Below are positions 27,548-41,703 of a DNA stretch of 64,000 nucleotides, piece after piece. Source of the stretch: an uncultured Candidatus Saccharibacteria bacterium. Its GTDB lineage: Bacteria > Patescibacteriota > Minisyncoccia > Phycocordibacterales > UBA9973. Under the pieces are notes generated by a model that worked only from the letters and a program-made list of their open reading frames with translations, was not told where the DNA came from and did not search any database. Position 1 is the stretch's first letter. Each line of letters begins with the position of its first letter. Position numbers and translations under genes: made by a program. The stretch lies in assembly GCA_964639185.1 (NCBI GenBank), contig CAZXCN010000004.1, forward strand, positions 174 through 64,173, read 5' to 3'.

Positions 27548-27964
27548 TTAAATTACTTCTACAAAAACAATTTTTGCAACGGTGTCGCCTGCTTTTAGTG
27601 TAATAGGTTGAGTATTGTGATTCACTATTTCAAGAGTTATTTCATTATCAGTTTTTGGATGACAAAACGAGGAACTCTGGGCTACATCTAAACCTTTTCT
27701 TGCTAAAGAACTTGTAGTAAAGACAAGAGCGGCAATATCAGGAGATAGTGTTATCTTTTCTTGTGTTCTTCCTAGTAAAAAACTCCCAGATGGAATAACT
27801 TTACCAAAAGAAGAAACTGGCTCCCATTTCTGACTTACCTCATCAAAAATAGAACCTATTTTTAAATCATAACTAGCTTCTTCTAACAAATTCAAGTCAA
27901 AAGGATTAATTAAAATTAGTTTTTCTTCAATCTTTTTTAAAATTGTTTGTTTTGAAAAAATCAT
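27548..27964 (-). CDS. dCTP deaminase/dUTPase-family protein (short paralog, possible dUTPase)
   Basis: 'ASYDLKIG', 'TSSLARKGL', 'EITLEIVNH' align with Dcd/Dut-family motifs. Only 138 aa. Confidence 0.55.
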   Translation of the reverse strand: MIFSKQTILKKIEEKLILINPFDLNLLEEASYDLKIGSIFDEVSQKWEPVSSFGKVIPSGSFLLGRTQEKITLSPDIAALVFTTSSLARKGLDVAQSSSFCHPKTDNEITLEIVNHNTQPITLKAGDTVAKIVFVEVI

Positions 27965-29295
27965 TATGAAAGTTTTTCTTTTATATGTTCTACAAGTTCA
28001 GATATAGCGATGCGTTCTTGGGTGCCAGTATCTCGGTCGCGGATTGTAACAGTATCAATCAAGTCTGGGTTCTCGCCCAATGTGTCAAAGTCTATAACTA
28101 TACAGAATGGTGTACCTATCTCGTCTTGTCTGCGATACCTCTTACCTATGTTACCATTGTCATCCCACATTACACGGCCAAATTCGTCTTTCAAAGTTCG
28201 GTATACCTTGTGTGCATAATCACGCAACTCTTGCTTGTTCTTCAATAGTGGTGATACTGCGCATATAACAGGAGCCATGTTTGGCGCAAATGCTAAATAT
28301 GGTCGAACTTCGCCACCTTTTGTATCCTCTTTATATGCACTAGTAAGGAGAGCCAGAACTGTACGCTCGAGTCCAAATGAAGGCTCGATAACATGCGGGG
28401 TAAACCTCTCGCCGCTCTCTTCGTCGAAATATGTTAAGTCCTGTCCACTACCCTTTGCATGGCGAGATAGGTCAAAGGAAGCTCGATAAGCCAAACCATA
28501 CAATTCCTTCCTACCAAATGGAAATTCAAACTCAAAGTCGATAGTGCGGTCTGAATAATGAGCACGGTCACCATCAGCCACCTCGAGCTCATGAACATGG
28601 TTCATGTCTATACCAATAGACTCCATCCAAGACAACATCTCGGCGCGGAAATATTCGAAATATTTCTTCCACTCTTCCGGCTTTAGGAAATACTCGATCT
28701 CCATCTGCTCAAATTCACGAACACGAAATATAAAATCGCGAGGAGTTATTTCATTACGAAAAGCTTTACCTGTTTGGGCTAATCCAAATGGTAATTTTGG
28801 ATGTATAGAATCCATAACATTCTTGAAATTTACAAACATACCTTGGGCTGTTTCTGGGCGCAAATATACTGTAGAAGCCGAGTCAGCCACCGCACCTATT
28901 TGAGTAGCAAACATCATATTGAAATTCTTCTCTTCCCCTAATTTCCCTCCACATTCAGGACAGCCAGCTGTTGTATCTATCTGGTCTGCGCGGAAACGCT
29001 TCTTGCATTCAGTACACTCCACCATCGGGTCGGAAAAATTGTCGACATGTCCTGTTGACTGCCACACCTTTGCATTCATAAGTATTGCAGCATCTACCCC
29101 ATACATATCGTCACGAGATTCCACGAACTTCTTCCACCAAGAGTTCTTTATATTATTCTTCAGTGCTACACCTAGTGGGCCATAATCAAATGTACCTGCG
29201 AGTCCACCATATATTTCAGAACCTTGATATATAAATCCGCGACGCTTTGCAAGCGATGTTAACTTCTCCATTAAATTATTGTCTTTGTCTTCCAT
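27964..29295 (-). CDS. glyQS: Glycyl-tRNA synthetase, dimeric eukaryote/archaeal-like type
   Basis: Single-chain class II GlyRS pattern ('FRNEITPRDFIFRVREFEQMEIEYF', 'GLERTVLALL'). Confidence 0.85.
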   Translation of the reverse strand: MEDKDNNLMEKLTSLAKRRGFIYQGSEIYGGLAGTFDYGPLGVALKNNIKNSWWKKFVESRDDMYGVDAAILMNAKVWQSTGHVDNFSDPMVECTECKKRFRADQIDTTAGCPECGGKLGEEKNFNMMFATQIGAVADSASTVYLRPETAQGMFVNFKNVMDSIHPKLPFGLAQTGKAFRNEITPRDFIFRVREFEQMEIEYFLKPEEWKKYFEYFRAEMLSWMESIGIDMNHVHELEVADGDRAHYSDRTIDFEFEFPFGRKELYGLAYRASFDLSRHAKGSGQDLTYFDEESGERFTPHVIEPSFGLERTVLALLTSAYKEDTKGGEVRPYLAFAPNMAPVICAVSPLLKNKQELRDYAHKVYRTLKDEFGRVMWDDNGNIGKRYRRQDEIGTPFCIVIDFDTLGENPDLIDTVTIRDRDTGTQERIAISELVEHIKEKLS

Positions 29296-29320
29296 TTGTT
29301 TTAAAAATTATTTATCATAA

Positions 29321-31222
29321 TTACCTTACTACCTTCTCATCGTCAATCTTGAAAAAGGGGTCATTTTCCAAACGTGTACTAAGTGACTGTTTGACCGAAC
29401 GTAAACCGCTATTAGAAAATGAATCAATACCCGTTAGATTAACTTCCTTTATAATATTTGGCACAGTACCTACTTGAGAAACTGAGGGCTTTATTTTTAT
29501 ATTAAATGCCGCCTCTCTATTATTTGAGCCAAATCCTGTATTTGATCTTACTGTACCAATATTCCACACCACTTGTCGAGTCAAAGAGTCATATGTTACA
29601 ACTTCCTTGTTACCATTCGCTAAACCTACCCATTCAACATATACAGGTAATTCTGCACGAGCCTCAGCTTGAGTTACTGGATTTATAGAATTCGAAAGTG
29701 TCCAATATATTGTATAAGTTGTATCTTTTTCTGCTTTTGGAGGCAACTCACCTGAAGCATAATTTGCACGAGCAACAAGTTGGAAATCTGAAGCAATTCG
29801 AACTATCTTCTTTGCAAAATTATTTATTTCAGATACAGCTGAGCCTGATGTAGATTCACGTCCTTTTATACTAACTTCCAATATTATTTGCGGGTCACGA
29901 ATTGTTTGGTTAGAACCAATAACAGTCATTGGGGTGAATTCAAAATTTAGATACCCAGTAGAACCCGGTGCTAGATTTGCAAATTCTGAATTTGTATTTC
30001 TGTTCCATATGATTCGATTATTTGCAGAATCATAAAAGCCTTGCTCAGGAACCACTGTTTCTTTATCAAAAATATTACCACTAAATTGCATGCTAACTTC
30101 AGCATCCAAGATTGATGAAGGTAGATTATTGGCCCATACTATTTGCCCTCGAATCATCTTGCCTCCAGATGTAGAATAACTATCTAGATCTGCTCCATCG
30201 AGCAATATTGTAGCTTGCAAGAATGGCTTGTGTAATTCAACAGTATGCAACAATGAATTATATATAACATCAACAATTGATTTATTCATTCCTTTTGTTG
30301 TTCCTACATATACATGGAAAGCTTTTTCATCACCATCTTGGCCATTCAATGTGCCTTTGATTATTATTGATACTGGCTTACCTACTGCTAAATTATTTAA
30401 ATTCCAAACAGAATTACCAAATACAGGCTTCGGCAATGTCTCACTAGGCTTAAAACCATTTGGGTAACTCACTGACAGCATTGTATCGCCCTCAGGTAAT
30501 GTTGTGTTGAGAGTGGTGGTAATATTTAAAGTTATTTCCTGACCAGAACTTGTTTGTATTGGACCATCTATAGCCAAAGTTATCGGTGATGAACTGATTG
30601 TAACAGGATAAGATTTTTCTTTTGTAAAAATAGCATTTGAACCTTCAGGGTGATATTCAAGCTTCACTTTTACATTACGTATAGTATTCTGATCACCATA
30701 AAGTGTAACCTTTTGGGACTTTTCCACTCGGCCACCTGCTGGTATAGTACCTATTTCCTCCTTTGGCAAACGAATAATACTATCAGGTGAATCGACTTCT
30801 GAAGTAGATGCACCTTTTGGATATTCAATAACCATATTTGATAATTCAAGGGCTGCATTATTGTGATTTACTATTTCTATTTGTAGCGACAATTCTTCAC
30901 CACCCTGAGTAAATGCATTTCCTAAAATATTTATTTCTATATTGTCGCTGGACACTGTGCGAGTACCATTCATATACATATAGACTCCAAAAAATATTGC
31001 TCCAATGAAAAACAAAATAGCTCCAATGAAAAATTTCTTTGCTATTGATATATGAGTGTTTTTTAATACAGTATCTTCAGACTCCTTCCATGCATTTGGA
31101 ACATTGTGTGGTACAGCATGCAGGACCCCTTCTTTATGATGAGCCTCCGAAGAAAAACCTCTTTCGTATAATTTACGTTTAATATCTTCTATTCTGTGCA
31201 GTGGGTTCTTAGATTCTGCCAT
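29321..31222 (-). CDS. Membrane-anchored protein with repeated beta-sandwich (CARDB/DUF11-like) extracellular domains
   Basis: Cytoplasmic N-terminus, one TM segment ('FFIGAILFFIGAIFFGVYMY'), then about 5 repeats with an 'x(I/V)xVxNxG...PG' pattern. Confidence 0.45.
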   Translation of the reverse strand: MAESKNPLHRIEDIKRKLYERGFSSEAHHKEGVLHAVPHNVPNAWKESEDTVLKNTHISIAKKFFIGAILFFIGAIFFGVYMYMNGTRTVSSDNIEINILGNAFTQGGEELSLQIEIVNHNNAALELSNMVIEYPKGASTSEVDSPDSIIRLPKEEIGTIPAGGRVEKSQKVTLYGDQNTIRNVKVKLEYHPEGSNAIFTKEKSYPVTISSSPITLAIDGPIQTSSGQEITLNITTTLNTTLPEGDTMLSVSYPNGFKPSETLPKPVFGNSVWNLNNLAVGKPVSIIIKGTLNGQDGDEKAFHVYVGTTKGMNKSIVDVIYNSLLHTVELHKPFLQATILLDGADLDSYSTSGGKMIRGQIVWANNLPSSILDAEVSMQFSGNIFDKETVVPEQGFYDSANNRIIWNRNTNSEFANLAPGSTGYLNFEFTPMTVIGSNQTIRDPQIILEVSIKGRESTSGSAVSEINNFAKKIVRIASDFQLVARANYASGELPPKAEKDTTYTIYWTLSNSINPVTQAEARAELPVYVEWVGLANGNKEVVTYDSLTRQVVWNIGTVRSNTGFGSNNREAAFNIKIKPSVSQVGTVPNIIKEVNLTGIDSFSNSGLRSVKQSLSTRLENDPFFKIDDEKVVR

Positions 31223-31254
31223 AGGCTATATTATAACATATAAGGTCGCTTATT

Positions 31255-31845
31255 TTACAGCTGACTTTCGCGCAAAGCCTTATTTATAGCTAATATTATT
31301 GGCTTCTTATTATCAAGAACTTTCATAACATCTTCTGGGACAGAGCTCTCTCCCAAACAATGATCGATATCGGCACTATCTCCTATATAACCCAGCTGGT
31401 GCAATATACGCAACACTAATTGTAATTCCAGAGCATCACACATTTGTGAATCTGTATTTTCAGTATCGAGTGTAGTAAAAGCCTGCACAACATCGTAGAA
31501 TATCTCCCTATTACCCTCTTCACCAGCGCAGAGCCTCTCTAACAATTTACAAACACGCATCATAAGTGCAATGGACTTTATATCCTTGCGCGCGTATGGA
31601 AAAGAGTTCTCGTGCGTGGCTGATGTCACTCTCCAAATATCACGTCCACGCACCAAGTCTAAACTGACATATGACAATTCCTGCATTGAGTAACGAAGTT
31701 TGGATTTATGAAGTCGTATCCCCTGTGCCATGGCATAGACTAACCCATGGTCGAGTGTATAGATAATAAATAATTTATTCGCCTCGCCCCTGTTGCGCGA
31801 GCCGATAACTATCCCCTCTGTGTGATGTATATGATGTTGCGCCAT
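31255..31845 (-). CDS. recO: DNA repair protein RecO-like (short form)
   Basis: N-terminal OB-fold 'TEGIVIGSRNRGEANKLFIIYTLDHGLVYAMAQGIR' resembles the RecO N-terminus. Lacks the usual C-terminal Cys4 zinc-binding segment. Confidence 0.55.
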   Translation of the reverse strand: MAQHHIHHTEGIVIGSRNRGEANKLFIIYTLDHGLVYAMAQGIRLHKSKLRYSMQELSYVSLDLVRGRDIWRVTSATHENSFPYARKDIKSIALMMRVCKLLERLCAGEEGNREIFYDVVQAFTTLDTENTDSQMCDALELQLVLRILHQLGYIGDSADIDHCLGESSVPEDVMKVLDNKKPIILAINKALRESQL

Positions 31846-31846
31846 T

Positions 31847-32491
31847 TTATATTAATGTTTTTATTTTATCAGAAAGAGCATTACCTAAAGATAAATTATT
31901 ACTTTCATCTAGGTGAATTCCCTCATCGTCTGCTGTTATACAAAACTCATTAGAATCAAAGAATATTACATTTTCATTTTCACAAAAATCTTTATATATT
32001 TCTCTTATTTTTATTATTTTTTGTTGAGACTGAATATCAAATATATTATTCATAACCTCATCTTTTAGAACCTGATCTGCACGAATTTCTGGTGGGGCGA
32101 TAATGCCTATTTTAGGTATTTGATCTATAGAGAGGTTTTTACACCATTCGATAATTTCATTTTTATAATTTAATAAACTTTGATATATTTCTTTTTCAGT
32201 TTTTAAATCTTTCTTATTACAATCATTGGTGCCTAAAAATATCCATACTAAGTCTAAAGGTAAATGACTACCAATAATAGGACCAAATTGATTCAACCCA
32301 TTTCTGTTTGGAAAAAATTTATTTTCTCCCGAAAGGGTTCTGGCTCTCAATCCTTCATCAATTATTTTGTAGTCTTTTCCTAAGTCTTTTTCAATAACAC
32401 CAATAAAGTTTAATGAGCGATTATACCTTTTTGTAAATTTAGGTATTTTACCATATACAAGAGAGTCACCATAAAATAATACTGTTTTCAT
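31847..32491 (-). CDS. SGNH/GDSL-family hydrolase
   Basis: 'VLFYGDSLVYG' (catalytic Ser block) and 'FLGTNDC' (block III). Confidence 0.65.
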   Translation of the reverse strand: MKTVLFYGDSLVYGKIPKFTKRYNRSLNFIGVIEKDLGKDYKIIDEGLRARTLSGENKFFPNRNGLNQFGPIIGSHLPLDLVWIFLGTNDCNKKDLKTEKEIYQSLLNYKNEIIEWCKNLSIDQIPKIGIIAPPEIRADQVLKDEVMNNIFDIQSQQKIIKIREIYKDFCENENVIFFDSNEFCITADDEGIHLDESNNLSLGNALSDKIKTLI

Positions 32492-32748
32492 ACTTCAATT
32501 ATATCACAACTATCAAAACCCTTATTTGACAAGGGTTAGTGGGATTGCTATATTGAATGGGTAATGAAAATTTACGCAAAACAGATCAATAGTTCTCCGG
32601 TACCGCAAGCTGACAATTTGATGGCTGGTTTTTGCGTTTAAATATACTCTCTATAATTTAACTTAAATATAAACACCAGCCCTCAAATGGCTGGTGTTTA
32701 TATTTACAAAAAAAACAATTTGCACATTCACAACTTAATTTAAAAAAC

Positions 32749-32988
32749 ATGAAAAACATCATCCAAAACATTGCGGGTTTACTTGGGCTATTTCTATTTG
32801 CCCTTCTTTTACTAATTTTATTAATCTTGTGGTATATAACTGGTATACCGAACAAGATTCTTTGCTTTTTATCTCCAAAGTATAAATTACACTATGAACA
32901 AAAATGTAAAGAGAAAGAAGAGATGGAAAGAAAAAAGTTCAATGAATCCACTATGAATCGTGGTTGGGCCTTTCAAAACCTAAGGTAA
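32749..32988 (+). CDS. Small hypothetical membrane protein
   Basis: N-terminal hydrophobic helix 'LLGLFLFALLLLILLILWYITG' followed by a charged tail. Followed by a terminator. Confidence 0.3.
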   Translation: MKNIIQNIAGLLGLFLFALLLLILLILWYITGIPNKILCFLSPKYKLHYEQKCKEKEEMERKKFNESTMNRGWAFQNLR

Positions 32989-33006
32989 TTCTCATCCTAA
33001 AAATTC

Positions 33007-33042
33007 AAAATGCTTCCGTAATATTACGGAAGCATTTTTTTA
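33007..33042 (+). terminator. rho-independent terminator
   Basis: Stem 'aaaatgcttccgta' / 'tacggaagcatttt' with a 4-nt loop and a T-run. Confidence 0.7.
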
Positions 33043-33107
33043 TTAATAAATTTTTATATAAAACCACTTAGCCACGGCCGTGGCTATTATGGTGTTTATG
33101 TTAATTT

Positions 33108-33542
33108 TTATTTTCTATTATCATATTCAATCAAAAACTCAATAGCTTTATCTAATACATCCTTGCGTGTTTCCTGACTAAACATAAATGTTTCTACAGC
33201 TTCGTTGTATGTTACCCATTTATACTCGTCAATCTCTTCCTTTTGTATAACTACTGTTTTATTTTTCGCAATACCAATAAAATATTGATTAGTCTTTAAT
33301 ACTCCATTTTTTATAAAATATTCTTCACGAATTAATGGAGTATCTAGAATTTCAATGTCTTCTATTTGTGTTTCCTCTTGTAATTCACGCATAGCGGTTT
33401 GTAGTGGTGTTTCCCCCTCTTCACAATGACCTTTTGGGAAACTCCAATTTACACCATAATCAATCTCTTTATGTCGTAAAATTAAAAATTTATTTTCATC
33501 TCCTAGTAAAACTACAACTACTCCGTATGCATTTTCTTTCAT
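33108..33542 (-). CDS. NUDIX hydrolase
   Basis: Nudix box 'GHCEEGETPLQTAMRELQEETQI'. Start overlaps the ileS stop by 4 nt. Confidence 0.75.
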   Translation of the reverse strand: MKENAYGVVVVLLGDENKFLILRHKEIDYGVNWSFPKGHCEEGETPLQTAMRELQEETQIEDIEILDTPLIREEYFIKNGVLKTNQYFIGIAKNKTVVIQKEEIDEYKWVTYNEAVETFMFSQETRKDVLDKAIEFLIEYDNRK

Positions 33543-36500
33543 TTGGATATCTGAATTCTAATTTCTAATGTATCTACAACTACAGTTTCGCCATCATTAT
33601 CGGCAAAGTTTACAACACCAGCACCTACTGTCTTCTTGAATTCATTCATAAATTCTTCTACTAAATGTTGCGCATTTATAGATATGGTCACAGTCACCAC
33701 ATCAGCTGGTACAAGTCCCATGTTCTTCCTACCATCTTGGACAGCACGAACAAGCTCGCGATAGTCACCCTCGCGCTTTAGATCAGGAGTTATCTCTGTA
33801 TCCAAACCTAGCTCAGCACCGACGACTACATCTTTTACGTTCAATTCATCTTTCAATATTTCTTTGTATTCAGAAGTAATATTTGATTTTGTAACAATTA
33901 TTTTTGAAAGTGGCTGACGAACTTTGATACCAGCTTTCTGCCTCATCTGCAAACCTACTGTTACAATGTTGCGTACTTCTTGCATCTCCTCCAATACAAC
34001 CTTATCAGCTTCACCATCCACCTCAGGCCAGTCTGCTAGGTGCACACTCTCCACATCATTATTCAGCTTCAACCTCTGCCAGATATCCTCGGCTATAAAT
34101 GGTGTAAATGGCGCTATAAGCGTAACTGTGTTTTTTAGTACATAATACAGAGTAGACAGAGCTTCTGTGTCACCATCCTTCAACCTGTCACGTGATCGGC
34201 GTAGGTACCATGTAGACAAATCTTCAATAAACAATTCAAACGGTCGTGTAGATAGAACCATATCATAAGCCTCCATACCATCGGTAACTTCCACCACCAA
34301 TTCAGCAAGGCGTGACAATATCCATTTATCTAAAACATTTTCACTTACCACATTTTTATTATTCTCCAATTCTTTATTGCGATACAACTCATAAAATGTT
34401 GTAACATTTTCCAACCTGCCTACTATCTTGCTAGATATCTCTTGCACAGTCTTCTCGGTAAATGCTACATCCTCCCCCTTCATTACAGGGCAAGACATAA
34501 GGTAGAATCGCAATGCATCTACACCGTATTTATCAAAAAGTATTTGTGGGTCAGGGTAATTATTTTTTGACTTACTCATCTTGCTACCATCTTCAGCAAG
34601 TATAGTTCCTGTTGTTACAACATTTCGGAATGGTGCATGACCAAACAAAGTGCTTGATATTATATGTGTGTAGTAGAACCATGTACGAGTCTGGGCAATA
34701 TATTCAGCCACGAACCCTGCTGGGAAGTTCTCCTTCTCCCAATTTGGTCTTTCAAATGGATAATGATCTTGAGCAAAAGGCATCGAACCAGATTCGAACC
34801 AACAGTCGATAACTTCAGGAACACGAGTATACTCAGTACCCTCGTGGTCCACCAACTTTATCGCGTCGATATATGGCCTGTGTAGATCAAGCTCGTAGTG
34901 TGCATTGTGTGGTAGTGGAACAAAATCAAGGTCGATCAATGTACATGGGTTATGTGGATTATCTCTATATATATTGAATGATGTTACTTCATCGGCAGCC
35001 AGTGCCACTGCTGGCAAAACCTCAAGTCCTATACCATGTGTAACGATCAATATATTTTCGTTCTGATATTTACTTTCCAATTCGTAGATAAAATCTCCAA
35101 ACCTATTCTTTGCATTTTGATGACTCTCACCACCTTCGGGTGCCGCATGGTAGTAACTTGATTGATCATAAGCCCAATCATTGCGTACCTGCCAAGTCTG
35201 ACCATCATAAACACCTGGATTCAATTCTATAAGTCTTTCATCGTGATCGATACTGTCTTTTGCTACACCAATACTATCAACTATTATCTCAGCTGTTTGA
35301 TTTGTACGTGCGAATCGTGATGCAAAAACTTTTGTAATATTTGCATGTTTTAATTTATCGGCTACTTCTTTTGCCTGATCAATACCCTTGTCTGTAAGCG
35401 AGTCGCCTGCCTCATCCTTGTAACTAATCCTATTTTCCACATTATGTTGTGCCTCACCATGACGCACTACAAAGTACCTGTTACCACTCCTCTTTACCTT
35501 GCTCTTCAGATCATCGAGCGAATTTACTATCATCAATTTACCACTCTCGGATTTCCAGAATGGCAAGGGGCTAGCCCAGAAGCGATTGCGAGATATTGTC
35601 CAATCCGGCGCACCCTCCATGATATGCTTGAACCTACCCTCTTTCAAATGAGATGGGACCCAATTCATAACCTCGGCATTCTTCAATGCCTCGGCTTTTA
35701 CCTTCTGCACATTTATAAACCATGAAGGTAGTGCGTAGTATAGAAGTGGTGTATCACAGCGATAGCAGTGTGGGTATGAGTGCACGATCTTTTCCTTTGC
35801 AAATAATGAACCTTTGTGTGCCAAATACTTTATCACCAATACATCGGTTGATTGTGGATCCTCCTTTGGCTTGGCTTTTACATCAGGAAAATCTACTACT
35901 TCTTTAGTAAAGAATCCGTTTGGTTCAACATGACGAATAAAAGGAATATTATTCTCTTTTGCAAGATTCATATCATCCTCACCAAAAGCTGGAGCCTCGT
36001 GTGCAATACCTGTACCTGCATCATCGGTTACAAAGTCGGCATGCCATACACGCCAAATATTTTCTTTGTTTGGCATATCAACATCTTTATAATAATCAAA
36101 CACCGGTTCGTATTGCATACCTACCAATTCACTCCCCTTCACTTCCTTCAATATTTCAGGTTCTACAAATTTATCTTTCAACTTTTCAAAAAGATTCTTT
36201 GCCACTATAAGGTGGTCGTGTCCGCCACCAGCATTAGTAGTCTTCACATAAACATAATCAATATCTTTATTTACAGCTATCGCAGTGTTGCCCGGCAAAG
36301 TCCAAGGGGTTGTAGTCCAAGCAAGTAAATATGTATGTGAAGCAGAATCAGGAAAATTCTCGTCGTGTCGGAGCCCCCGGAGAGAGGGTAAAGCGACAGA
36401 ATTTTCCTGATTCTGCGAAACACGAAATTTCACATAAACAGAAATATCAGTTATGTCTTTATAACTATTATCCATAGCAATTTCTGAATTGGCTATTGGA

Positions 36501-37051
36501 GTCTCGCAACGTGGGCAGTATGCCAATACGCGCACACCCTCGTAAAGTAACTCTTTGTCATTCATCTGCCCCAGTGCCCACCATACACTCTCGATAAAGC
36601 TATTGTCCATAGTCTTATACGAGTTATCGAAGTCTACCCAGCGACCCATACGGTCCACTGTCTTCTTCCATTCACCTACATATTTCAACACAGCACTACG
36701 TGCATGCTCGGCGAATTTATCTACACCGAATTCCTCGATAGCTTTACGCCCTGATATACCTAGCTCTTTCTCGACAATATTCTCAATAGGTAGACCGTGG
36801 CAATCCCAACCCCAGCGCCTCGGTACATGGAACCCTCGCATGGTTTTATATCTTCCAATCACATCTTTTGCTGTCGATCCTAATATATGCCCATAATGTG
36901 GTAAACCTGTAGCAAATGGTGGCCCATCGTAGAAAACGTAAGTTCCCTTTGGAGCCTCCTTTGTTAGTGACTTATTGAAAGTGTCATTCTCTTTCCAGAA
37001 TCCTAAAACACTCTCTTCCCTTTTTGAATTATTACTTTTTTCGTTTTCCAT
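33539..37051 (-). CDS. ileS: Isoleucyl-tRNA synthetase (type 2) with an inserted histidine-phosphatase-superfamily domain
   Basis: 'PPFATGLPHYGHIL' (HIGH), 'WTISRNRFWASPLPFW', 'DLHRPYID', 'KMSKSKNN' (KMSKS). An approximately 190-aa segment (residues about 523-715) carrying 'VVRHGEAQHN', 'SRFARTNQTAE', 'PEGGES' and 'IVTHGIG' sits between the WxISRxR and DLHRP motifs. Confidence 0.9.
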   Translation of the reverse strand: MENEKSNNSKREESVLGFWKENDTFNKSLTKEAPKGTYVFYDGPPFATGLPHYGHILGSTAKDVIGRYKTMRGFHVPRRWGWDCHGLPIENIVEKELGISGRKAIEEFGVDKFAEHARSAVLKYVGEWKKTVDRMGRWVDFDNSYKTMDNSFIESVWWALGQMNDKELLYEGVRVLAYCPRCETPIANSEIAMDNSYKDITDISVYVKFRVSQNQENSVALPSLRGLRHDENFPDSASHTYLLAWTTTPWTLPGNTAIAVNKDIDYVYVKTTNAGGGHDHLIVAKNLFEKLKDKFVEPEILKEVKGSELVGMQYEPVFDYYKDVDMPNKENIWRVWHADFVTDDAGTGIAHEAPAFGEDDMNLAKENNIPFIRHVEPNGFFTKEVVDFPDVKAKPKEDPQSTDVLVIKYLAHKGSLFAKEKIVHSYPHCYRCDTPLLYYALPSWFINVQKVKAEALKNAEVMNWVPSHLKEGRFKHIMEGAPDWTISRNRFWASPLPFWKSESGKLMIVNSLDDLKSKVKRSGNRYFVVRHGEAQHNVENRISYKDEAGDSLTDKGIDQAKEVADKLKHANITKVFASRFARTNQTAEIIVDSIGVAKDSIDHDERLIELNPGVYDGQTWQVRNDWAYDQSSYYHAAPEGGESHQNAKNRFGDFIYELESKYQNENILIVTHGIGLEVLPAVALAADEVTSFNIYRDNPHNPCTLIDLDFVPLPHNAHYELDLHRPYIDAIKLVDHEGTEYTRVPEVIDCWFESGSMPFAQDHYPFERPNWEKENFPAGFVAEYIAQTRTWFYYTHIISSTLFGHAPFRNVVTTGTILAEDGSKMSKSKNNYPDPQILFDKYGVDALRFYLMSCPVMKGEDVAFTEKTVQEISSKIVGRLENVTTFYELYRNKELENNKNVVSENVLDKWILSRLAELVVEVTDGMEAYDMVLSTRPFELFIEDLSTWYLRRSRDRLKDGDTEALSTLYYVLKNTVTLIAPFTPFIAEDIWQRLKLNNDVESVHLADWPEVDGEADKVVLEEMQEVRNIVTVGLQMRQKAGIKVRQPLSKIIVTKSNITSEYKEILKDELNVKDVVVGAELGLDTEITPDLKREGDYRELVRAVQDGRKNMGLVPADVVTVTISINAQHLVEEFMNEFKKTVGAGVVNFADNDGETVVVDTLEIRIQISK

Positions 37052-37270
37052 AATATTTTGAAATTAAAAATAAAAAAACTCGTCCACGTACAACAATATA
37101 AATTGTTATACAAGGACGAGCTTCTCGCGGTACCACCTTGTTTCCCTTTCGGGCTCTCATTTTTGTGGGTTCTACGGTCTTACGACTTTCTTCCCAAAGC
37201 CTGCCTGCCGGCAGGCAGGCTCTAGAGGTGATAGCCTCTAATGACTTATACCCAAATCATACTCTAAAAC
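37052..37270 (-). promoter_or_regulatory. T-box riboswitch-like leader of ileS
   Basis: Minus strand reads '...AGAGCCCGAAAGGGAAACAAGGUGGUACCGCGAGAAGCUCGUCC-N28-GGACGAGUUUUUUU'. T-box core GGUGGUACCGCG plus an intrinsic terminator. The upstream hairpin UAGAGG-CUAUCA-CCUCUA puts AUC (Ile) followed by A in its loop. Confidence 0.55.
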
Positions 37271-37283
37271 CCAAATTTTGCAA

Positions 37284-37312
37284 GAAAAAAGGCTTGCCAC
37301 ACGGACAAGCCT
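37284..37312 (-). terminator. rho-independent terminator of the DUF62-like gene
   Basis: Stem ggcttg-ccacacggac-caagcc preceded on the plus strand by a7 (a T-run on the minus strand). Confidence 0.65.
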
Positions 37313-37333
37313 TTTATAACATTTAAATAAAAC

Positions 37334-38122
37334 TCAAACCTGATCACCAACTTTATATTTAAATATTTTACTAGCTGATCTACCTTGTAGAACAATTTCA
37401 AGAAATCGCTTACTCTTGTATCCAGAACTACCTTTTACAAAAGCTGGAGAATGGTCTTCTTTGGGAACGTCCGCCAACTTTTCATAATATTTAGGGTCAA
37501 GTAATGATCTGTTTTCCAGAACATTTACCCATTTATTAGTTGAGGTGGTCTTGCAATTTCCAAAGCAGTCTACTGACCATACAAAATTCTGATAGCCAAA
37601 ATTTTGTATTTGAATTTTGCTTGATGGGACATCTTCCTCATCTACAATCCATTTGGCTAAATAAGGCAAATATTCGTAACTCCTGAATTGTGATTCAGAA
37701 ATACGAATTGCCTCCTCTTCTGGTAAAAATTTACTACACACATTTAAAACATTTGTTTCAAATGTATACTTAAACATTCCAAGCTTTTTAGCTAAAGAAA
37801 AACAATTTGGTGTTCCAATGATCAGCAAATTTTTAAACCAGTGGAAACAGAATGGAATTCCATTTGGATATTGCTCTTTGTTACCACGAGGGGCAACATT
37901 TACAACAATAATACCCTTTGAATCCTTATGCGCATCAATAGCATCAATGAGGTTACCTGAGGCTTCTAGATCGGTGGTAACACCAACAAAAGTAGTGTTC
38001 ACATTACCAAGCAATGCTTGATAGCGGAGAATTTGCCTAGCACGAGCATTGTCGTCACAGCAGTCGGAGATGATTGTTAGTTGCATATTTTTATATTTAT
38101 TTGGTTTTATTTTAAAGAACAA
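37334..38122 (-). CDS. DUF62 / SAM hydroxide adenosyltransferase (fluorinase/chlorinase-like) family protein
   Basis: N-terminal 'LTIISDCCDDNARARQ' (compare TDFGxxDxYVG) and C-terminal 'VWSVDCFGNCKTT' (compare IDxFGNLxTN). Confidence 0.45.
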   Translation of the reverse strand: MFFKIKPNKYKNMQLTIISDCCDDNARARQILRYQALLGNVNTTFVGVTTDLEASGNLIDAIDAHKDSKGIIVVNVAPRGNKEQYPNGIPFCFHWFKNLLIIGTPNCFSLAKKLGMFKYTFETNVLNVCSKFLPEEEAIRISESQFRSYEYLPYLAKWIVDEEDVPSSKIQIQNFGYQNFVWSVDCFGNCKTTSTNKWVNVLENRSLLDPKYYEKLADVPKEDHSPAFVKGSSGYKSKRFLEIVLQGRSASKIFKYKVGDQV

Positions 38123-38287
38123 AAAAAACAGCCCATCGGGGCTGTTTTTTGTATTTCATATTTTAGAAAATTATGCAGTACAAAAAGCAACCTCGATATT
38201 TGGGCTTCGCATCATCATAGATACTGTTGCTTTTGTAAACTTATTCATATTTTTATACTATCAAAATGATAAATAATGTCAAATACC

Positions 38288-39985
38288 CTACACCACCTCC
38301 TTTTGATAACAAGATTCACAATACACTGGTCGGGATTCTTGATTTGTAAAAAATGTTTCAAATGTATTATTACAATACCCTTCGTGTTCATGACTTTCTT
38401 GCGAGCAATCACATTGTCTGTTTACTAGATCAAAACTTCCTCGCATTGCTTCCCTCTTTGCATAACGACAGAAAAAGCAAGCCTCAGGAATAGGAATTTT
38501 TAACCTTTTATAAAATGTAAATTCATCCGGTAAAATTTTGTAATTTCTTTCACATTCTACACAAGCAAGAATTTCCGAGGTTATTGTATCTGGCACGTCT
38601 TCAATACTATCGGGTATGTCTACCTGCTTTATTGTTTCTTTGCCTCTTGTTTGTTGTAATTCATCTTGCCAATGATACCCTTTCTCTGTTGCTTCTTCTT
38701 TTAAAATATCAAGCTGCTCTATAGCCCGAGTTTCGTTTATTCCACAAAGAGCATATTTTGCTGGGAAAAATTCACCATATTCCCCCCTGTTTTTCATATC
38801 TTCGATTATCTGTTCTTTTAATTTAAAATATTCTTCTTTGCTATACCTTTTATTAAGAATCACATATTTCCCAGTCTTTACTCCCACACAGCCAAAAACT
38901 TCTTCACATGAATGACAATCTATACAGTATGAGATATTCCTATTTTTCCAAGATTTTATTGTAGCTAGTGAGTTGTAGGACTGATCGGGAGTAACACACT
39001 CATAGGCAAGCTCTGTTTCCGCTCCACCAGCACAATCATAGCAAGATTTAAAAGTAACCCCATTGTGAGAGTATCTAGAATCTTCAGAAAAAGCAGCATA
39101 TTTTGAATCATGTGTATTTTTACTTCGAACCATTTCTGCTCCTGTACAATTTACACAATTACGAAGATCTGCAAACTTCCTTGGGTGATCTTTTATAAAA
39201 TCTGCAAACTCTTCCTTGGCTTTTTTAGCCCCACTTCTGGTTTCAAGTTTATAGGATTCAATTATTTTGTTATATTCCTCTCTTGTATATTTCTTATTTT
39301 TAAAATAGTGTTGCTTGTTACGTAGGCCCACACACATAAAGCAATCTGTGCATCCTCGTAAATCATAACCAAAGAAACAATCTGTGCATGAAGCGGACCA
39401 ATATATGTATTTACTACGAGCCACCGAGTCAATAACCACCCCTTCATATGTAAATTCGCTCATTTCATTTATACAATGACAATCACAAACATCTTTGGCT
39501 ACATTTATATACATACTATATAAACAATTCTCCATTCGCCATGCCACAAAGCACATTGCAGAATTCTTAGAAAAAGCAATGTCGTTATTGTACAAACAAT
39601 TAACGCTCCCGATACCTTCATCATTTACTATTCCAAGTTTTGGTATAGATTTTAAAAGATTATTAAATTGTTCAAAGAAAGATTTTGTGGGGTCATATTC
39701 TATACCATAATCTTCTGGATTAAATTTGTCTCCAAAGAAGCACTTCGGGCACATTACCTCACTTGCATTATTTTGTGCATATATAGAAATAAACTTTTTA
39801 CTACACATAAAACACTCTCTGTTATACAGAACAAAATCATTGAGCCATGCTAACCTTCTTGTTCTTCTGCATTTTGGGCAGAAAGTTGGTGCAGGCACAC
39901 CCATCTTTTCATAAAAGCCAAAATCATCCGGCTCGATGGCGAAGTCGTTCTTACAGTTCTGGCAATTATGTGTTTCAGGATTCAT
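38288..39985 (-). CDS. Cysteine-rich multi-zinc-ribbon protein with internal repeats, unknown function (paralog 1)
   Basis: About 40 Cys in CxxC/CxDC pairs. Similar N- and C-terminal ribbons ('CQNC...FY.K.GVPAPTFCPKCRR' and 'CVEC...FYKRLKIPIPEACFFCR'). Internal repeats of the form 'C.DC...GC.G...NKxYxxEEY'. Start lies 5 nt after the argS stop. Confidence 0.5.
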   Translation of the reverse strand: MNPETHNCQNCKNDFAIEPDDFGFYEKMGVPAPTFCPKCRRTRRLAWLNDFVLYNRECFMCSKKFISIYAQNNASEVMCPKCFFGDKFNPEDYGIEYDPTKSFFEQFNNLLKSIPKLGIVNDEGIGSVNCLYNNDIAFSKNSAMCFVAWRMENCLYSMYINVAKDVCDCHCINEMSEFTYEGVVIDSVARSKYIYWSASCTDCFFGYDLRGCTDCFMCVGLRNKQHYFKNKKYTREEYNKIIESYKLETRSGAKKAKEEFADFIKDHPRKFADLRNCVNCTGAEMVRSKNTHDSKYAAFSEDSRYSHNGVTFKSCYDCAGGAETELAYECVTPDQSYNSLATIKSWKNRNISYCIDCHSCEEVFGCVGVKTGKYVILNKRYSKEEYFKLKEQIIEDMKNRGEYGEFFPAKYALCGINETRAIEQLDILKEEATEKGYHWQDELQQTRGKETIKQVDIPDSIEDVPDTITSEILACVECERNYKILPDEFTFYKRLKIPIPEACFFCRYAKREAMRGSFDLVNRQCDCSQESHEHEGYCNNTFETFFTNQESRPVYCESCYQKEVV

Positions 39986-39990
39986 AAAAT

Positions 39991-41703
39991 TTACATTTTA
40001 TTTGGGGTTTGGATACCTAGGAGGTATAAGGCGTTTTGCATTGTTGTGTGGAATGCGGAAACAAGGGCTAGGTGGTAAGCTTTGTATTCATTTTCATCAT
40101 TTAGTATATGAGTATTACCGTAGAAACTATTAAAGCTACTTGCAAGCTCGGTAGCATATGTGGCTATATGGTGTGGTTCAAGTTCTGTATACGCGCGGAC
40201 AACCACTTCAGGGAATTGGTACAACATCTTTTCCAAAACTGTTACTTCTGCTGGGGAGTTGTGTGTATCGAAATTGTTTAAGCCAGCTTTTCCAAGTATC
40301 GCATTTGCACGCACCGCTGTGTATTGTAAATACGGACCAGAATCCCCTTCGAAAGATATAGACTTTTCAGAATCATAAATAATATCTGATCCCAGCGATG
40401 AACGTAGTATGGAATATTTTAGTGCGGACACACCTACTACTTCTGCAATATTCTTCTTTTCCTCATCACTCAGTTCCCTCTCAGTCATCTTCTCATAAAC
40501 AGTATCAATAGAGTCGTGTAATAGTGACTCACCAGTAATAATATTACCCTTGCGTGAACTCATCTTGCCACTTGTTAGGCGCATCATGCCGTGAGTAATA
40601 TGCTTCATGCGTGCCTCGTACTCCGGATGGATAAGTGATATAGCTTTTGCTACTACTTTCATATACTCGCCTTGTTCAATGGCAGTCACTACTATAGATA
40701 GGTCTAGGTCCTGTTCCTTTTCAAACTTTGTTATAGTTAGGCCTATTTCCTTTGTCTCGTACAATGGGATGCCTAGTGATGTAATAAATACACGAGTGTG
40801 TAACTTTGGATCATAATTCTCTGCTTTGAAAACTATTGCTCCGTCAGACTCTTCGAAAACATTTGGAATATTGTCCCTCACTATCTTCTCACCAATTGGG
40901 GCCATGACGCTTTCGAAAAAGTAGTGAACAAATTTTGTCCCAAGGATTTTATAAATTTCTTCAAAAGCTTCCAGTGTTACCTCGCGGCCCCAGTCATATA
41001 TTTTGTTTACTTCAACATCACTCCTATCATAAACTTTTTTATTTAGAGCTTCGATTTCCTTCTTTGCATTTTCATCATTATCATAAGCATCGCTACCTTG
41101 TGCATAACAATCCCCTATGTATTGGGCTAGAACTGAAGCAGATGCAGATTCATTTGCTGGAGAGCCAGCCTTGTACATACCATATATTGCTTTTGCTACA
41201 TGCATTCCTACGTCACCTTGATAATTTGCGCGTACAGTTGTAGCCCCTGAGAATTCGACAATGCGTGCCACCGACTCACCTATAGCATTGGTCATGAGGT
41301 GTCCGATATGAAATGGCTTGAAAGGGTTTGGGTCAGTATACTCTACCATTATCTTTTTACCTTTTGATATTTCACTCTTACCCCACTCGCTACCTTTATT
41401 TAATATCTCACCAATTGCATTAGTAAAAAATTCACGAGATAGATAAAAATTAATGAACCCTGCACCAGCTACTTGAATTTCACGTACATGAAATTCACCC
41501 TGATCTTGTCGAAGAATTTCAACAATTTTTTCTGCCAATTCTCTCGGGTTCATCCCTGCCTGCTTTGCATATGCCATAGCCACATTCGTTGAATAATCAC
41601 CATTATTCAAATCAGCTGGGTGTTCAAGTACAATAGCCCCTGCCTGTATACCCAGGTTCTGCAAGGCTTTATTTATACTAGCTTTGATCTCGTCTTGTAT
41701 CAT
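39991..41703 (-). CDS. argS: Arginyl-tRNA synthetase
   Basis: 'PNPFKPFHIGHLMTNAIGESVARI' (HIGH region) and the C-terminal DALR anticodon-binding domain. Confidence 0.9.
   Translation of the reverse strand: MIQDEIKASINKALQNLGIQAGAIVLEHPADLNNGDYSTNVAMAYAKQAGMNPRELAEKIVEILRQDQGEFHVREIQVAGAGFINFYLSREFFTNAIGEILNKGSEWGKSEISKGKKIMVEYTDPNPFKPFHIGHLMTNAIGESVARIVEFSGATTVRANYQGDVGMHVAKAIYGMYKAGSPANESASASVLAQYIGDCYAQGSDAYDNDENAKKEIEALNKKVYDRSDVEVNKIYDWGREVTLEAFEEIYKILGTKFVHYFFESVMAPIGEKIVRDNIPNVFEESDGAIVFKAENYDPKLHTRVFITSLGIPLYETKEIGLTITKFEKEQDLDLSIVVTAIEQGEYMKVVAKAISLIHPEYEARMKHITHGMMRLTSGKMSSRKGNIITGESLLHDSIDTVYEKMTERELSDEEKKNIAEVVGVSALKYSILRSSLGSDIIYDSEKSISFEGDSGPYLQYTAVRANAILGKAGLNNFDTHNSPAEVTVLEKMLYQFPEVVVRAYTELEPHHIATYATELASSFNSFYGNTHILNDENEYKAYHLALVSAFHTTMQNALYLLGIQTPNKM

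What the first reader, a model, noticed from the sequence alone, without database searches (positions are those of the whole stretch)
34907..35485. Complete histidine-phosphatase (PGAM-like) domain inserted in-frame inside isoleucyl-tRNA synthetase
The 1170-aa ileS ORF is continuous and carries all the IleRS landmarks: HIGH, CP1, 'WTISRNRFWASPLPFW', 'DLHRPYID' and KMSKS. Between the WxISRxR and DLHRP blocks, type-2 IleRS normally has a few dozen residues. Here there are about 215. That segment contains the full motif set of the histidine phosphatase (branch 1, phosphoglycerate mutase/CobC-like) superfamily: 'VVRHGEAQHN' (catalytic His), 'SRFARTNQTAE', 'PEGGES' and 'IVTHGIG'. I am not aware of an aaRS with an embedded phosphatase domain. 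Possible roles include a catalytic or regulatory activity on nucleotides or alarmones (Ap4A, (p)ppGpp), on tRNA 3'-phosphates, or a moonlighting metabolic activity. This is seen directly in the sequence; the functional reading is inference.
Basis: partly seen in the sequence, partly recalled or inferred. Interest (0 to 1): 0.85.

Follow-up and report, generated by a model that had tools for sequence, protein, structure and literature searches.

The report
Phosphatase domain inside isoleucyl-tRNA synthetase
The enzyme that loads isoleucine onto tRNA in this small Patescibacteria genome has a complete, apparently active phosphatase spliced into its middle; many related species share this, and in sister lineages the same phosphatase is a separate gene right next to the synthetase gene, which points to an unstudied partnership between the two.

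Summary

It is not an assembly artefact. All 120 best homologues and all 80 species-level genome loci examined carry it, all from Parcubacteria/Paceibacteria-type MAGs.

The catalytic set R530/H531/R582/E609/H672 is essentially invariant in 255 embedded copies. dN/dS of the insert is 0.05.

The new result concerns the insert's closest stand-alone relatives, a 189-198 aa Patescibacteria family. In 8 of 8 contigs examined, the gene lies next to an insert-less ileS. In 6 of these it sits 1-25 nt upstream and co-directional.

So this is gene-neighbour plus domain-fusion evidence for an IleRS-associated phosphomonoesterase. The substrate is unknown, and the pocket-forming loops are the most variable part of the protein.

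No paper was found in 10 searches. Database entries exist since 2015, unremarked. I class it as a new variant of a known kind, with moderately high interest.

The parts
33539..37051 (-). ileS: 1170-aa type-2 isoleucyl-tRNA synthetase carrying the insert (stop codon included)
   Evidence: ORF. TIGR00392 scores 863 bits against a 621 cut-off. Best solved relatives are IleRS2 8c8u (E 6e-207) and eukaryote-type IleRS.
35492..37051 (-). IleRS N-terminal part, aa 1-520: first half of the Rossmann fold, CP1 editing domain, CP2, and the first strand-helix of CP3
   Evidence: Aligns to 8c8u residues 6-465. HYGH 52-55, WTTTPW 245-250 and WTISRNR 484-490 verified.
34922..35491 (-). Inserted histidine phosphatase (His_Phos_1, branch 1) domain, aa 521-710, equal in extent to a whole stand-alone 189-198 aa homologue
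35456..35464 (-). R530-H531-G532: the RHG motif, with the predicted phospho-accepting histidine
   Evidence: Aligned to RHG of PhoE 1h2e. R and H are 255/255 in embedded copies.
35306..35308 (-). R582: second phosphate-binding arginine
   Evidence: 255/255 conserved. Aligned to the PhoE arginine in 'SGRALETAE'.
35225..35227 (-). E609: predicted general acid
   Evidence: 251 E plus 3 D of 255. Aligned to the PhoE 'RLREIHLG' glutamate.
35036..35038 (-). H672: second catalytic histidine (T-H-G)
   Evidence: 254/255 conserved. Aligned to 'VTHG' of PhoE.
33539..34921 (-). IleRS C-terminal part, aa 711-1170: rest of CP3 (beta-hairpin, D-L-HRPYID), second half of the Rossmann fold with KMSKS, anticodon-binding and C-terminal domains
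   Evidence: Aligns to 8c8u 477-851. Anticodon_1 and DUF5915.
36887..36898 (-). HIGH signature (H-Y-G-H, aa 52-55)
   Evidence: H52, Y53, G54 and H55 are invariant in 69 sequences.
34568..34582 (-). KMSKS signature (aa 824-828)
   Evidence: K824, M825, K827 and S828 are invariant.

Best explanation
The gene encodes the housekeeping type-2 IleRS of a Parcubacteria/Paceibacteria-type bacterium. A whole, catalytically competent PhoE/CobC/PspA-like histidine phosphatase has been grafted into a surface loop of its CP3 subdomain.

Shown here:
- The insert is a full-length homologue of a ~190-aa stand-alone phosphatase.
- In sister lineages that stand-alone gene lies next to an insert-less ileS in all 8 contigs examined, usually 1-25 nt upstream.
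- The catalytic pentad is fixed across the radiation.
- The IleRS synthetic and editing signatures are intact.

Inferred from the established chemistry of the histidine phosphatase superfamily: the module hydrolyses a phosphomonoester through a phospho-H531 intermediate. R530, R582 and H672 hold the phosphoryl group, and E609 acts as the general acid.

Inferred from gene neighbourhood plus fusion: the phosphatase works together with IleRS. It would do so as a partner protein where the genes are separate, and as a tethered third catalytic module where they are fused. The fused form probably arose by capture of the neighbouring gene into the structurally permissive CP3.

My best guess for the substrate class is a small phosphomonoester, nucleotide-like or otherwise generic, rather than a protein. 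The nearest sequence and fold relatives are all compact small-molecule phosphatases that carry a cap subdomain. Which molecule it is, and whether its hydrolysis feeds back on aminoacylation, is not known.
For: Identity and integrity:
- Pfam His_Phos_1 E 1.4e-30.
- PhoE 1h2e aligns over RHG, R, E and THG.
- AF2 pLDDT 92.5.

Selection:
- R530, H531 and R582 are 255/255. E609 is 251 E plus 3 D. H672 is 254/255.
- dN/dS against the 92%-identical L001 is 0.047 for the insert and 0.075 for the core.

Functional IleRS:
- TIGR00392 is above its cut-off.
- HIGH, KMSKS and the editing motifs are invariant.

Spread:
- 120/120 best homologues carry the insert.
- 80/80 genome loci hold the match inside ileS, from 505 candidate loci.

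Link to ileS:
- The best non-IleRS hits in 1.84 billion representatives are ~190-aa proteins.
- In 8 of 8 cases examined these lie next to an insert-less ileS: P0187, P0222, P0217, P0210, P0232, P0245, P0383 and P0358. In 6 the gene is 1-25 nt upstream and co-directional. In L085 the contig ends after the phosphatase gene, which follows argS. In L084 ileS is convergent.
- Their first and last residues match the ends of the insert.
- The pairing holds for two IleRS lineages only 34% and 44-50% identical to the query.
- Eleven further phosphatase/IleRS pairs share the same longest-contig length.

Permissive site:
- CP3 has three different topologies in solved IleRS (PMC7191050).
- Variants carry 2-4 tandem phosphatase copies or added GNAT domains at the same place.
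Against: - No biochemical data exist, and the tools do not return model coordinates. I could not measure where the phosphatase active site sits relative to the synthetic site, the editing site or the tRNA path.
- Adjacency alone is weak evidence in these genomes. argS-ileS-recO-p633-glyS is a frozen synteny block, and recO is just as adjacent without any known link to IleRS.
- A third state exists. Related IleRS in L094 (Kuenenbacteria) and L095 (Paceibacterota) have neither the insert nor a phosphatase gene within 4 kb. IleRS of this type does not need the phosphatase in cis.
- In characterised relatives the substrate pocket is shaped by the loop after beta-1, the cap and the C-terminal part. 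Here these are the most variable parts of the protein, at 2.5-2.8 bits entropy against 0.9 for the IleRS core. This argues against one precisely recognised ligand.
- No NCBIfam equivalog (CobC, dPGM, GpmB, PspA, SixA) reaches its cut-off.
- The NJ trees do not resolve whether there was one fusion event or several, or the direction of change.
Confidence: 0.6

Rival explanations
1. Passenger fusion. The phosphatase is an ordinary housekeeping or metabolic phosphomonoesterase that happened to lie in the conserved argS-ileS block. It was captured into a tolerant loop of IleRS. It keeps its own unrelated job, and the fusion brings at most co-expression.
For: - The gene order around ileS is frozen across the radiation, and unrelated genes such as recO are equally adjacent.
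- The insert evolves much faster than the core, at 30-42% against 60-70% identity. Its pocket loops are unconstrained.
- Related IleRS do without it.
- CP3 is structurally variable and tolerates other inserts.
Against: - Insertion of a neighbouring gene into the interior of an essential enzyme needs more than loss of a stop codon. Yet it is fixed over a radiation in which the IleRS matches fall to about 38-40% identity.
- The same site carries the phosphatase in at least two other, distant contexts: L092 at 57% GC and L093.
- The stand-alone gene keeps its position, usually 1-25 nt upstream of ileS, beside two deeply diverged IleRS lineages.
- Tandem amplification to 2-4 intact copies inside IleRS suggests dosage selection in that context.
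Confidence: 0.27
2. tRNA-end or macromolecule phosphatase. The module removes a blocking phosphate from tRNA-Ile held on the synthetase: a 3'-phosphate, a 2',3'-cyclic-phosphate-derived phosphate, or a 3'-pyrophosphate of the kind that toxic RelA/SpoT-type enzymes add to CCA ends. Alternatively it removes an inhibitory phosphate from IleRS itself, as HipA-type kinases place on other synthetases. The background on these toxins is from my own knowledge and was not tested here.
For: - If specificity were supplied by the IleRS scaffold, the lack of a conserved substrate pocket would be expected.
- The association is specific to IleRS in both genomic forms.
Against: - The nearest relatives by sequence and fold are small-molecule enzymes with a cap over the active site. 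Cap-less protein phosphatases such as SixA are more distant.
- The embedded domain is neutral to acidic (mean net charge -3.5; window copy pI 5.2). The basic charge of many stand-alone copies simply follows their basic proteomes.
- There is no match to any anti-phage defence model.
- I know of no branch-1 member that acts on RNA ends.
Confidence: 0.1
3. Non-catalytic module. The domain is a pseudo-enzyme that serves as a structural spacer, a docking surface or a ligand sensor.
For: Most of the domain surface is poorly conserved. The zinc knuckle of CP3 was lost in the fused clade, so the insert might substitute structurally.
Against: All five catalytic residues, plus N537, S578, T586, E642 and R650, are conserved at 91-100% in 255 copies. 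Pseudo-enzymes typically lose such residues. Every copy in the tandem arrays is intact except one truncated by a contig end.
Confidence: 0.03
4. Artefact: a chimeric assembly, a frameshifted gene pair, or an intein-like element that is removed from the mature protein.
For: None beyond the a priori possibility.
Against: - The identical protein is present in independent NCBI and Logan assemblies.
- 120/120 homologues and 80/80 loci have one continuous frame.
- G+C and skew show no break at the junctions.
- No intein or Hint domain appears in Pfam.
- The flanking residues lack the Cys/Ser/Thr at position +1 that protein splicing needs. The 'PHN' after the insert belongs to IleRS, since it aligns to 8c8u 'HASHY'.
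Confidence: 0.005

Closest known systems
PhoE (YhfR) broad-specificity phosphatase of Geobacillus stearothermophilus (PDB 1h2e/1ebb) and its compact relatives PspA (4ij5), GpgP (6s2q) and CobC (6e4b, 6nru)
   Different: Those enzymes are free-standing. This one is embedded in another enzyme, or encoded next to it. Identity is only 20-26%. None of the NCBIfam equivalog models for these enzymes reaches its cut-off, so no substrate can be transferred.
Type-2 (eukaryote-like, mupirocin-resistant type) IleRS, e.g. Priestia megaterium IleRS2 (8c8u), Thermus thermophilus IleRS (1ile), Candida albicans IleRS (6ldk)
   Same: It has the same domain order and signatures, and the full-length alignment is continuous apart from the insert. 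The insertion point lies in the CP3 subdomain defined for these structures (PMC7191050).
   Different: About 190 extra residues sit in CP3 where the solved enzymes have about 11. The four cysteines that bind zinc in Thermus CP3, which are kept in the split-form relatives, are lost here.
Isoleucine-tRNA ligase, N-acetyltransferase domain-containing (NCBIfam NF040702)
   Same: It is a precedent, recognised by database curators, for an IleRS that carries a foreign enzymatic domain. Some relatives of the present protein carry GNAT domains as well as the phosphatase (P0219, P0200).
   Different: The window protein scores 346 bits against a 1999-bit cut-off, so it is not a member. The foreign domain here is a phosphatase, not an acetyltransferase.
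Bifunctional enzymes with a branch-1 histidine phosphatase domain: RNase H/acid phosphatase (NF005567, Rv2228c type), MutT1 Nudix plus histidine phosphatase (Rv2985, PDB 9cxx), PFK-2/FBPase-2
   Different: Those are end-to-end fusions. Here the domain is nested inside the partner's catalytic domain. All scores are below the family cut-offs.
Nested accessory modules of class Ia synthetases (CP1 editing domain of IleRS/ValRS/LeuRS, leucine-specific domain of LeuRS)
   Same: [quoted passage not shown]
   Different: CP1 is universal in the family and acts on the enzyme's own product. The phosphatase is lineage-restricted, of foreign origin, and its substrate is unknown.

Membership tests
Histidine phosphatase superfamily, branch 1 (Pfam PF00300) | Profile match above the curated threshold | tested here: met
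   106.8 bits against a 21.7 cut-off, E 1.4e-30, aa 527-688 on profile positions 2-163 of 194.
Histidine phosphatase superfamily, branch 1 (Pfam PF00300) | RHG motif with the nucleophilic histidine, a second Arg, a second His and an acidic proton donor | tested here: met
   R530-H531-G532, R582, H672 and E609 align to the PhoE catalytic residues. They are conserved at 98-100% in 255 embedded copies.
Histidine phosphatase superfamily, branch 1 (Pfam PF00300) | Alpha/beta fold of the family | tested here: met
   [not shown]
Histidine phosphatase superfamily, branch 1 (Pfam PF00300) | Phosphomonoesterase or mutase activity via a phospho-histidine intermediate | not testable with these tools
   Needs an enzyme assay.
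Isoleucyl-tRNA synthetase (NCBIfam TIGR00392), type 2 | Equivalog profile above its cut-off, with closest relatives of type 2 | tested here: met
   863 bits against a 621.4 cut-off. Best solved matches are IleRS2 8c8u (E 6e-207) and eukaryotic cytoplasmic IleRS.
Isoleucyl-tRNA synthetase (NCBIfam TIGR00392), type 2 | HIGH and KMSKS signatures and the CP1 editing motifs | tested here: met
   HYGH 52-55, KMSKS 824-828, WTTTPW 245-250 and GTGIAHEAPAFGEDD 346-360. Most of these residues are invariant in 69 sequences.
Isoleucyl-tRNA synthetase (NCBIfam TIGR00392), type 2 | It is the only IleRS of the genome (the housekeeping copy) | tested here: inconclusive
   There is no second ileS in the 64-kb window. 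The rest of the genome is not available.
Cofactor-dependent phosphoglycerate mutase (dPGM, GpmA/GpmB) | Equivalog profile above its cut-off | tested here: not met
   dPGM_arch scores 73.4 against 225, GpmB 68.2 against 261 and PRK01295 42.1 against 316. From my own knowledge of the family, the ERHYG and HGN motifs are replaced here by E-L-N-P-G and H-G-I.
Alpha-ribazole phosphatase CobC | Equivalog profile above its cut-off | tested here: not met
   TIGR03162 scores 80.4 against 162.9 and PRK15004 75.8 against 250.
Phosphoserine phosphatase PspA | Equivalog profile above its cut-off | tested here: not met
   NF045917 scores 64.6 against 350, although 4ij5 is the top fold match at 20% identity.
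IleRS with N-acetyltransferase domain (NF040702) | Exception-level profile above its cut-off, with a GNAT domain present | tested here: not met
   345.8 bits against 1999. There is no GNAT domain in Pfam.
Intein or other self-excising insert | Hint/intein domain and splice-junction residues | tested here: not met
   No such Pfam domain. There is no Cys/Ser/Thr at the +1 position. The residues after the insert align to IleRS 8c8u.

The most novel reading that the evidence does not exclude
IleRS in this radiation has acquired a genuine third catalytic site that serves aminoacylation. In this reading a dedicated phosphatase is recruited first as a partner encoded beside ileS and then built into CP3. 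It clears a phosphorylated molecule that would otherwise block IleRS. Candidates are a 3'-phosphorylated or 3'-pyrophosphorylated tRNA-Ile end, a phosphorylated competitor of Ile-AMP or ATP, or an inhibitory phosphate on the enzyme. That would be a new class of synthetase accessory activity beside editing.
Probability: 0.2. Interest if true: 0.85.

Novelty: new variant of a known kind. Interest (0 to 1): 0.66.

Why it matters
Aminoacyl-tRNA synthetases are among the best-catalogued enzymes. A 2024 curated catalogue of their domain superfamilies does not mention any phosphatase, and ten full-text searches found no paper on this architecture.

Here a catalytically intact phosphatase is nested in the catalytic domain of an essential synthetase across a large group of Patescibacteria. 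The same phosphatase is encoded next to ileS in sister lineages.

- If the two activities are coupled, this reveals an unknown step in tRNA-Ile charging or its protection. The organisms have minimal genomes, where retained genes tend to matter.
- If the activities are not coupled, it is still a clean natural example of domain insertion by capture of a neighbouring gene, at a site (CP3) that could be used for engineering.
- There is also a practical consequence. NCBI names fused members only "class I tRNA ligase family protein", while insert-less relatives are named isoleucine--tRNA ligase. Pathway reconstructions may therefore wrongly score IleRS as missing.

Tried and rejected
1. **Nudix link.** The 144-aa Nudix gene overlaps the ileS stop codon by 4 nt and looked like a partner (compare MutT1). 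It is present next to ileS in only 7 of 80 related loci, so it cannot explain the conserved feature.

2. **Charge as a sign of RNA binding.** Many stand-alone homologues are extremely basic (net +20 to +28, pI >10), while embedded copies are neutral or acidic. However, ArgRS, IleRS and RecO in the same loci are equally basic. This is a proteome-wide effect, so I dropped the argument.

3. **Counting fusion events.**
   - In the NJ tree of the phosphatase domains, 62 of 70 stand-alone copies form one clade, but P0232 falls among the embedded ones.
   - In the NJ tree of the IleRS cores, split-form enzymes interleave with fused ones.
   - The trees have no support values and the sequences are saturated, so I draw no conclusion on number or direction of events.

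4. **Geometry of the insert.** The full-length AF2 model (pLDDT 77.8, pTM 0.57) is returned without coordinates or PAE. The position of the insert relative to the active sites could not be measured. The AFDB library was not available.

5. **Substrate assignment by family models.** No NCBIfam equivalog reaches its cut-off for the insert or for the stand-alone P0187. PADLOC has no match for the insert.

6. **Regulatory RNA or promoter context.** There is no Rfam family in the whole window. Promoter-like sites are not above the shuffle expectation.

7. **Literature.** Ten searches combined IleRS or tRNA synthetase with histidine phosphatase, His_Phos_1, phosphoglycerate mutase domain, GNAT, CPR, Patescibacteria or Parcubacteria. 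They returned nothing on this architecture.

8. **Intein-like element.** Rejected, as set out under the rival explanations.
Full report
**Observation.** The minus-strand ORF 33539..37051 is continuous and encodes 1170 residues.
- Pfam finds the class-I synthetase catalytic domain split into two stretches (E 6e-125), the anticodon-binding domain and DUF5915. Between the two catalytic stretches it finds His_Phos_1 at aa 527-688 (E 1.4e-30, 106.8 bits against a gathering score of 21.7).
- NCBIfam's ileS equivalog scores 863 bits against a 621 cut-off. The next-best models are the MupA/MupB type-2 enzymes.
- Against the solved type-2 IleRS 8c8u, residues 4-507 align to chain residues 6-465 and residues 715-1079 to 477-851. 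About 207 residues therefore occupy the place of about 11.
- G+C content and skew show no discontinuity at the junctions.

**Not an artefact, and not private to this genome.**
- All 120 best homologues in a 5.8-billion-protein collection carry PF00300. They are 60-90% identical and 1136-1232 aa long, and come from NCBI, JGI, ENA and Logan, with contigs up to 362 kb.
In all 80 loci kept, the match lies inside one continuous IleRS reading frame.
- The record titles name Nomura-, Zambryski-, Vogel-, Kaiser-, Campbell- and Lloydbacteria, Paceibacterota, Minisyncoccia and Parcubacteria RAAC4_OD1_1. This is the Parcubacteria/Paceibacteria part of the Patescibacteria.
- The exact window protein is itself on record in NCBI and Logan assemblies.
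- A homologue has been public since 2015 as KKP84483.1 / UniRef100_A0A0G0DUT0, named simply isoleucine-tRNA ligase.

**Anatomy of the insert.**
- By sequence, the closest solved proteins are the broad-specificity phosphatase PhoE (1h2e/1ebb, E 1.3e-13), phosphoserine phosphatase PspA and CobC. RHG, the second arginine, the glutamate and THG all align.
- Modelled alone, the insert folds with pLDDT 92.5 and pTM 0.90.
- In the full-length model the insert is the most confident region, at about 88-94.
- The insertion point lies in the CP3 subdomain as defined for Candida IleRS. The same paper notes that CP3 has three different topologies in the three solved IleRS types and binds zinc only in Thermus (PMC7191050).
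- The window protein and its fused relatives have lost the four CP3 cysteines. Insert-less relatives keep them.

**Selection.**
- In 255 embedded copies, R530, H531 and R582 are invariant. E609 is E in 251 copies and D in 3. H672 is present in 254. N537, S578, T586, E642 and R650 are 91-100% conserved.
- Against the 92%-identical orthologue in L001, dN/dS is 0.047 for the insert and 0.075 for the core.
- The insert nevertheless diverges much faster than the synthetase: 30-42% against 60-70% identity.
- The divergence is concentrated in the loop after beta-1, the cap and the C-terminal part, at 2.5-2.8 bits entropy against 0.9 for the IleRS core. The phosphate-binding core holds 13 invariant positions.
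- The chemistry is therefore conserved, but no well-defined substrate pocket is.
- The IleRS signatures HIGH, KMSKS and the editing motifs are invariant. The synthetase is functional too.

**The key new evidence.**
- I searched 1.84 billion cluster representatives with the insert. Beyond IleRS proteins and fragments of them, the best hits are ~190-aa single-domain proteins at 36-41% identity.
- I looked up the contigs of eight of them: P0187, P0222, P0217, P0210, P0232, P0245, P0383 and P0358. In all eight the phosphatase gene is next to ileS, and that ileS has no insert (931-984 aa).
- In six (L081, L083, L086, L088, L090, L091) the phosphatase gene lies 1-25 nt upstream of ileS and co-directional with it. 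Where the contig reaches far enough it lies between argS and ileS, with recO downstream. This is the same argS-ileS-recO-p633-glyS block as in the window.
- In L085 the phosphatase gene follows argS, but the contig ends before ileS could appear. In L084 ileS is convergent.
- The stand-alone proteins begin '..NNKYYILRHG' and end '..GELRKLN*'. The insert in the family consensus begins 'SGNKYFVMRHG' and ends 'NAEIKELNF'. The insert therefore corresponds to the entire stand-alone protein.
- The pairing occurs beside two IleRS lineages that are only 34% and 44-50% identical to the query.
- The stand-alone family has at least 322 members, all Patescibacteria where named, for example Staskawiczbacteria.
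- The 120 nearest relatives of a split-form IleRS all lack PF00300 (Portnoy-, Kuenen-, Pacebacteria). Eleven of them share their longest-contig length with a stand-alone phosphatase hit, which suggests further co-located pairs.
- A third state also exists. In L094 (Kuenenbacteria) and L095 (Paceibacterota), ileS has neither the insert nor a phosphatase gene within 4 kb.

**Interpretation.**
- What is shown: this is a functional type-2 IleRS carrying a full, catalytically equipped branch-1 histidine phosphatase in CP3. It is conserved under purifying selection, and it is homologous to a phosphatase that in sister lineages is encoded next to ileS.
- What follows from established knowledge of the superfamily: the module should hydrolyse a phosphomonoester through a phospho-H531 intermediate.
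- What is inferred: neighbourhood plus fusion indicates that the phosphatase acts together with IleRS, and that the fusion arose by capture of the neighbour into a permissive loop.
- A tandem duplication of the phosphatase-ileS pair followed by two in-frame deletions would do this without ever losing a functional ileS. That is speculation.
- I favour a small-molecule substrate because of the nearest relatives and the presence of a cap. The variable pocket would equally fit a broad-specificity enzyme, or one whose specificity is lent by the IleRS scaffold.
- I put about 0.95 on the structural and catalytic-competence claim, about 0.85 on common origin with the ileS-adjacent gene, and about 0.5 on real functional coupling.

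**Rivals.**
- *Passenger fusion.* This is the serious alternative. The synteny block is frozen, and recO is just as adjacent. Some relatives lack the phosphatase near ileS.
- *tRNA-end or protein phosphatase.* This is attractive but unsupported. The charge argument collapsed once neighbouring proteins were used as controls. There is no defence-system match.
- *Pseudo-enzyme, assembly artefact, intein.* These readings are contradicted by the data.

**Variants seen on the way.**
- P0137 is an IleRS with four tandem phosphatase domains. The protein is cut by the contig end.
- P0216 and P0234 have two intact copies.
- P0219 has GNAT plus phosphatase plus GNAT, in a 57% G+C lineage.
- P0200 is a truncated IleRS-like protein. 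It has an IS200-like domain in CP1, the phosphatase at the same CP3 site and a C-terminal GNAT, but no KMSKS or anticodon domain.
- P0220 has a weak AAA_18-like segment after the phosphatase.

CP3 of IleRS is evidently a hot spot for enzymatic add-ons in uncultivated lineages.

**Comparison with what is known.**
- The insert is a member of the histidine phosphatase superfamily, branch 1. All sequence and fold criteria are met.
- It belongs to none of that superfamily's named equivalog families; CobC, dPGM, GpmB and PspA are all below cut-off.
- The host is a member of IleRS type 2.
- The combination is not the NCBIfam 'IleRS with GNAT' family (346 against 1999 bits).
- End-to-end fusions of histidine phosphatase domains with RNase H, Nudix (MutT1) or PFK-2 are known. 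A nested insertion in a synthetase catalytic domain is not described in the literature I could search (ten searches).
- A 2024 catalogue of synthetase domain superfamilies does not mention any phosphatase.

**Verdict.** This is a real, conserved and previously unremarked architecture. I class it as a new variant of a known kind: a synthetase with an accessory domain, or equivalently a histidine phosphatase fusion. The added finding is that the same phosphatase is an ileS neighbour in sister lineages. Interest is moderately high, and the function remains to be determined experimentally.

Noticed in passing
[not shown]
   Followed up: partly
window 27964-41703 (-); loci L001-L080: The gene order argS - ileS - recO - 633-aa protein of unknown function - glyS is conserved across the radiation. 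Among the 80 loci, recO is found in 68, p633 in 60, argS in 53 and glyS in 48.
   Followed up: yes
P0137, P0216, P0234/P0271/P0272: These are IleRS variants with two tandem His_Phos_1 domains at the same site. One variant, cut by the contig end, has four. Every complete copy keeps the catalytic residues.
   Followed up: partly
L092 6001-10686 (P0219, 1561 aa; 13 cluster members, contigs up to 2.1 Mb): An IleRS from a 57% G+C lineage. It has a GNAT acetyltransferase domain in the CP1 region, the histidine phosphatase in CP3, and a second GNAT-like segment after it. The gene context is different (sortase, gltX, a class Ib synthetase). The phosphatase-in-IleRS architecture therefore extends beyond the window's low-G+C clade.
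   Followed up: partly
L093 6001-9201 (P0200, 1066 aa): A truncated IleRS-like protein. It has the N-terminal half with an IS200/REP-type tyrosine transposase domain inside CP1 (NF047646, 81.3 bits against an 80 cut-off). The histidine phosphatase sits at the same CP3 site with the zinc cysteines kept, followed by a C-terminal GNAT domain and a stop. There is no KMSKS and no anticodon-binding domain. It could be a non-canonical paralogue or a decaying gene.
   Followed up: partly
P0220 (1395 aa): An IleRS with the phosphatase followed by a segment weakly resembling an AAA_18 nucleotide-kinase-like domain (28.9 bits, just below the 29.4 gathering score).
   Followed up: no
window 34862-35551 (-) compared with L081, L083, L086, L088: Insert-less relatives keep two Cys pairs flanking the insertion point, which form the CP3 zinc knuckle as in Thermus IleRS. 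The window protein and its fused clade have lost all four. The fused P0200 keeps them.
   Followed up: partly
(database names): NCBI annotation calls the fused proteins only 'class I tRNA ligase family protein', while insert-less relatives are named 'isoleucine--tRNA ligase'. The insert probably defeats automatic naming, which could make IleRS look absent in metabolic reconstructions of these MAGs.
   Followed up: no
window 38288-39985 (-), 37334-38122 (-), 29321-31222 (-): Three proteins have no Pfam or NCBIfam match. One is a 565-aa cysteine-rich protein with many CxxC pairs between argS and ileS, present in only 2 of 80 related loci. One is a 262-aa protein directly upstream of ileS. One is the conserved 633-aa protein downstream of recO.
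   Followed up: no
window 32492-33107: A ~600-nt stretch has no ORF of 90 aa or more. It contains a perfect 14-bp palindromic hairpin (33007-33038) that reads as a terminator on both strands. It has no tRNA and no Rfam match.
   Followed up: no
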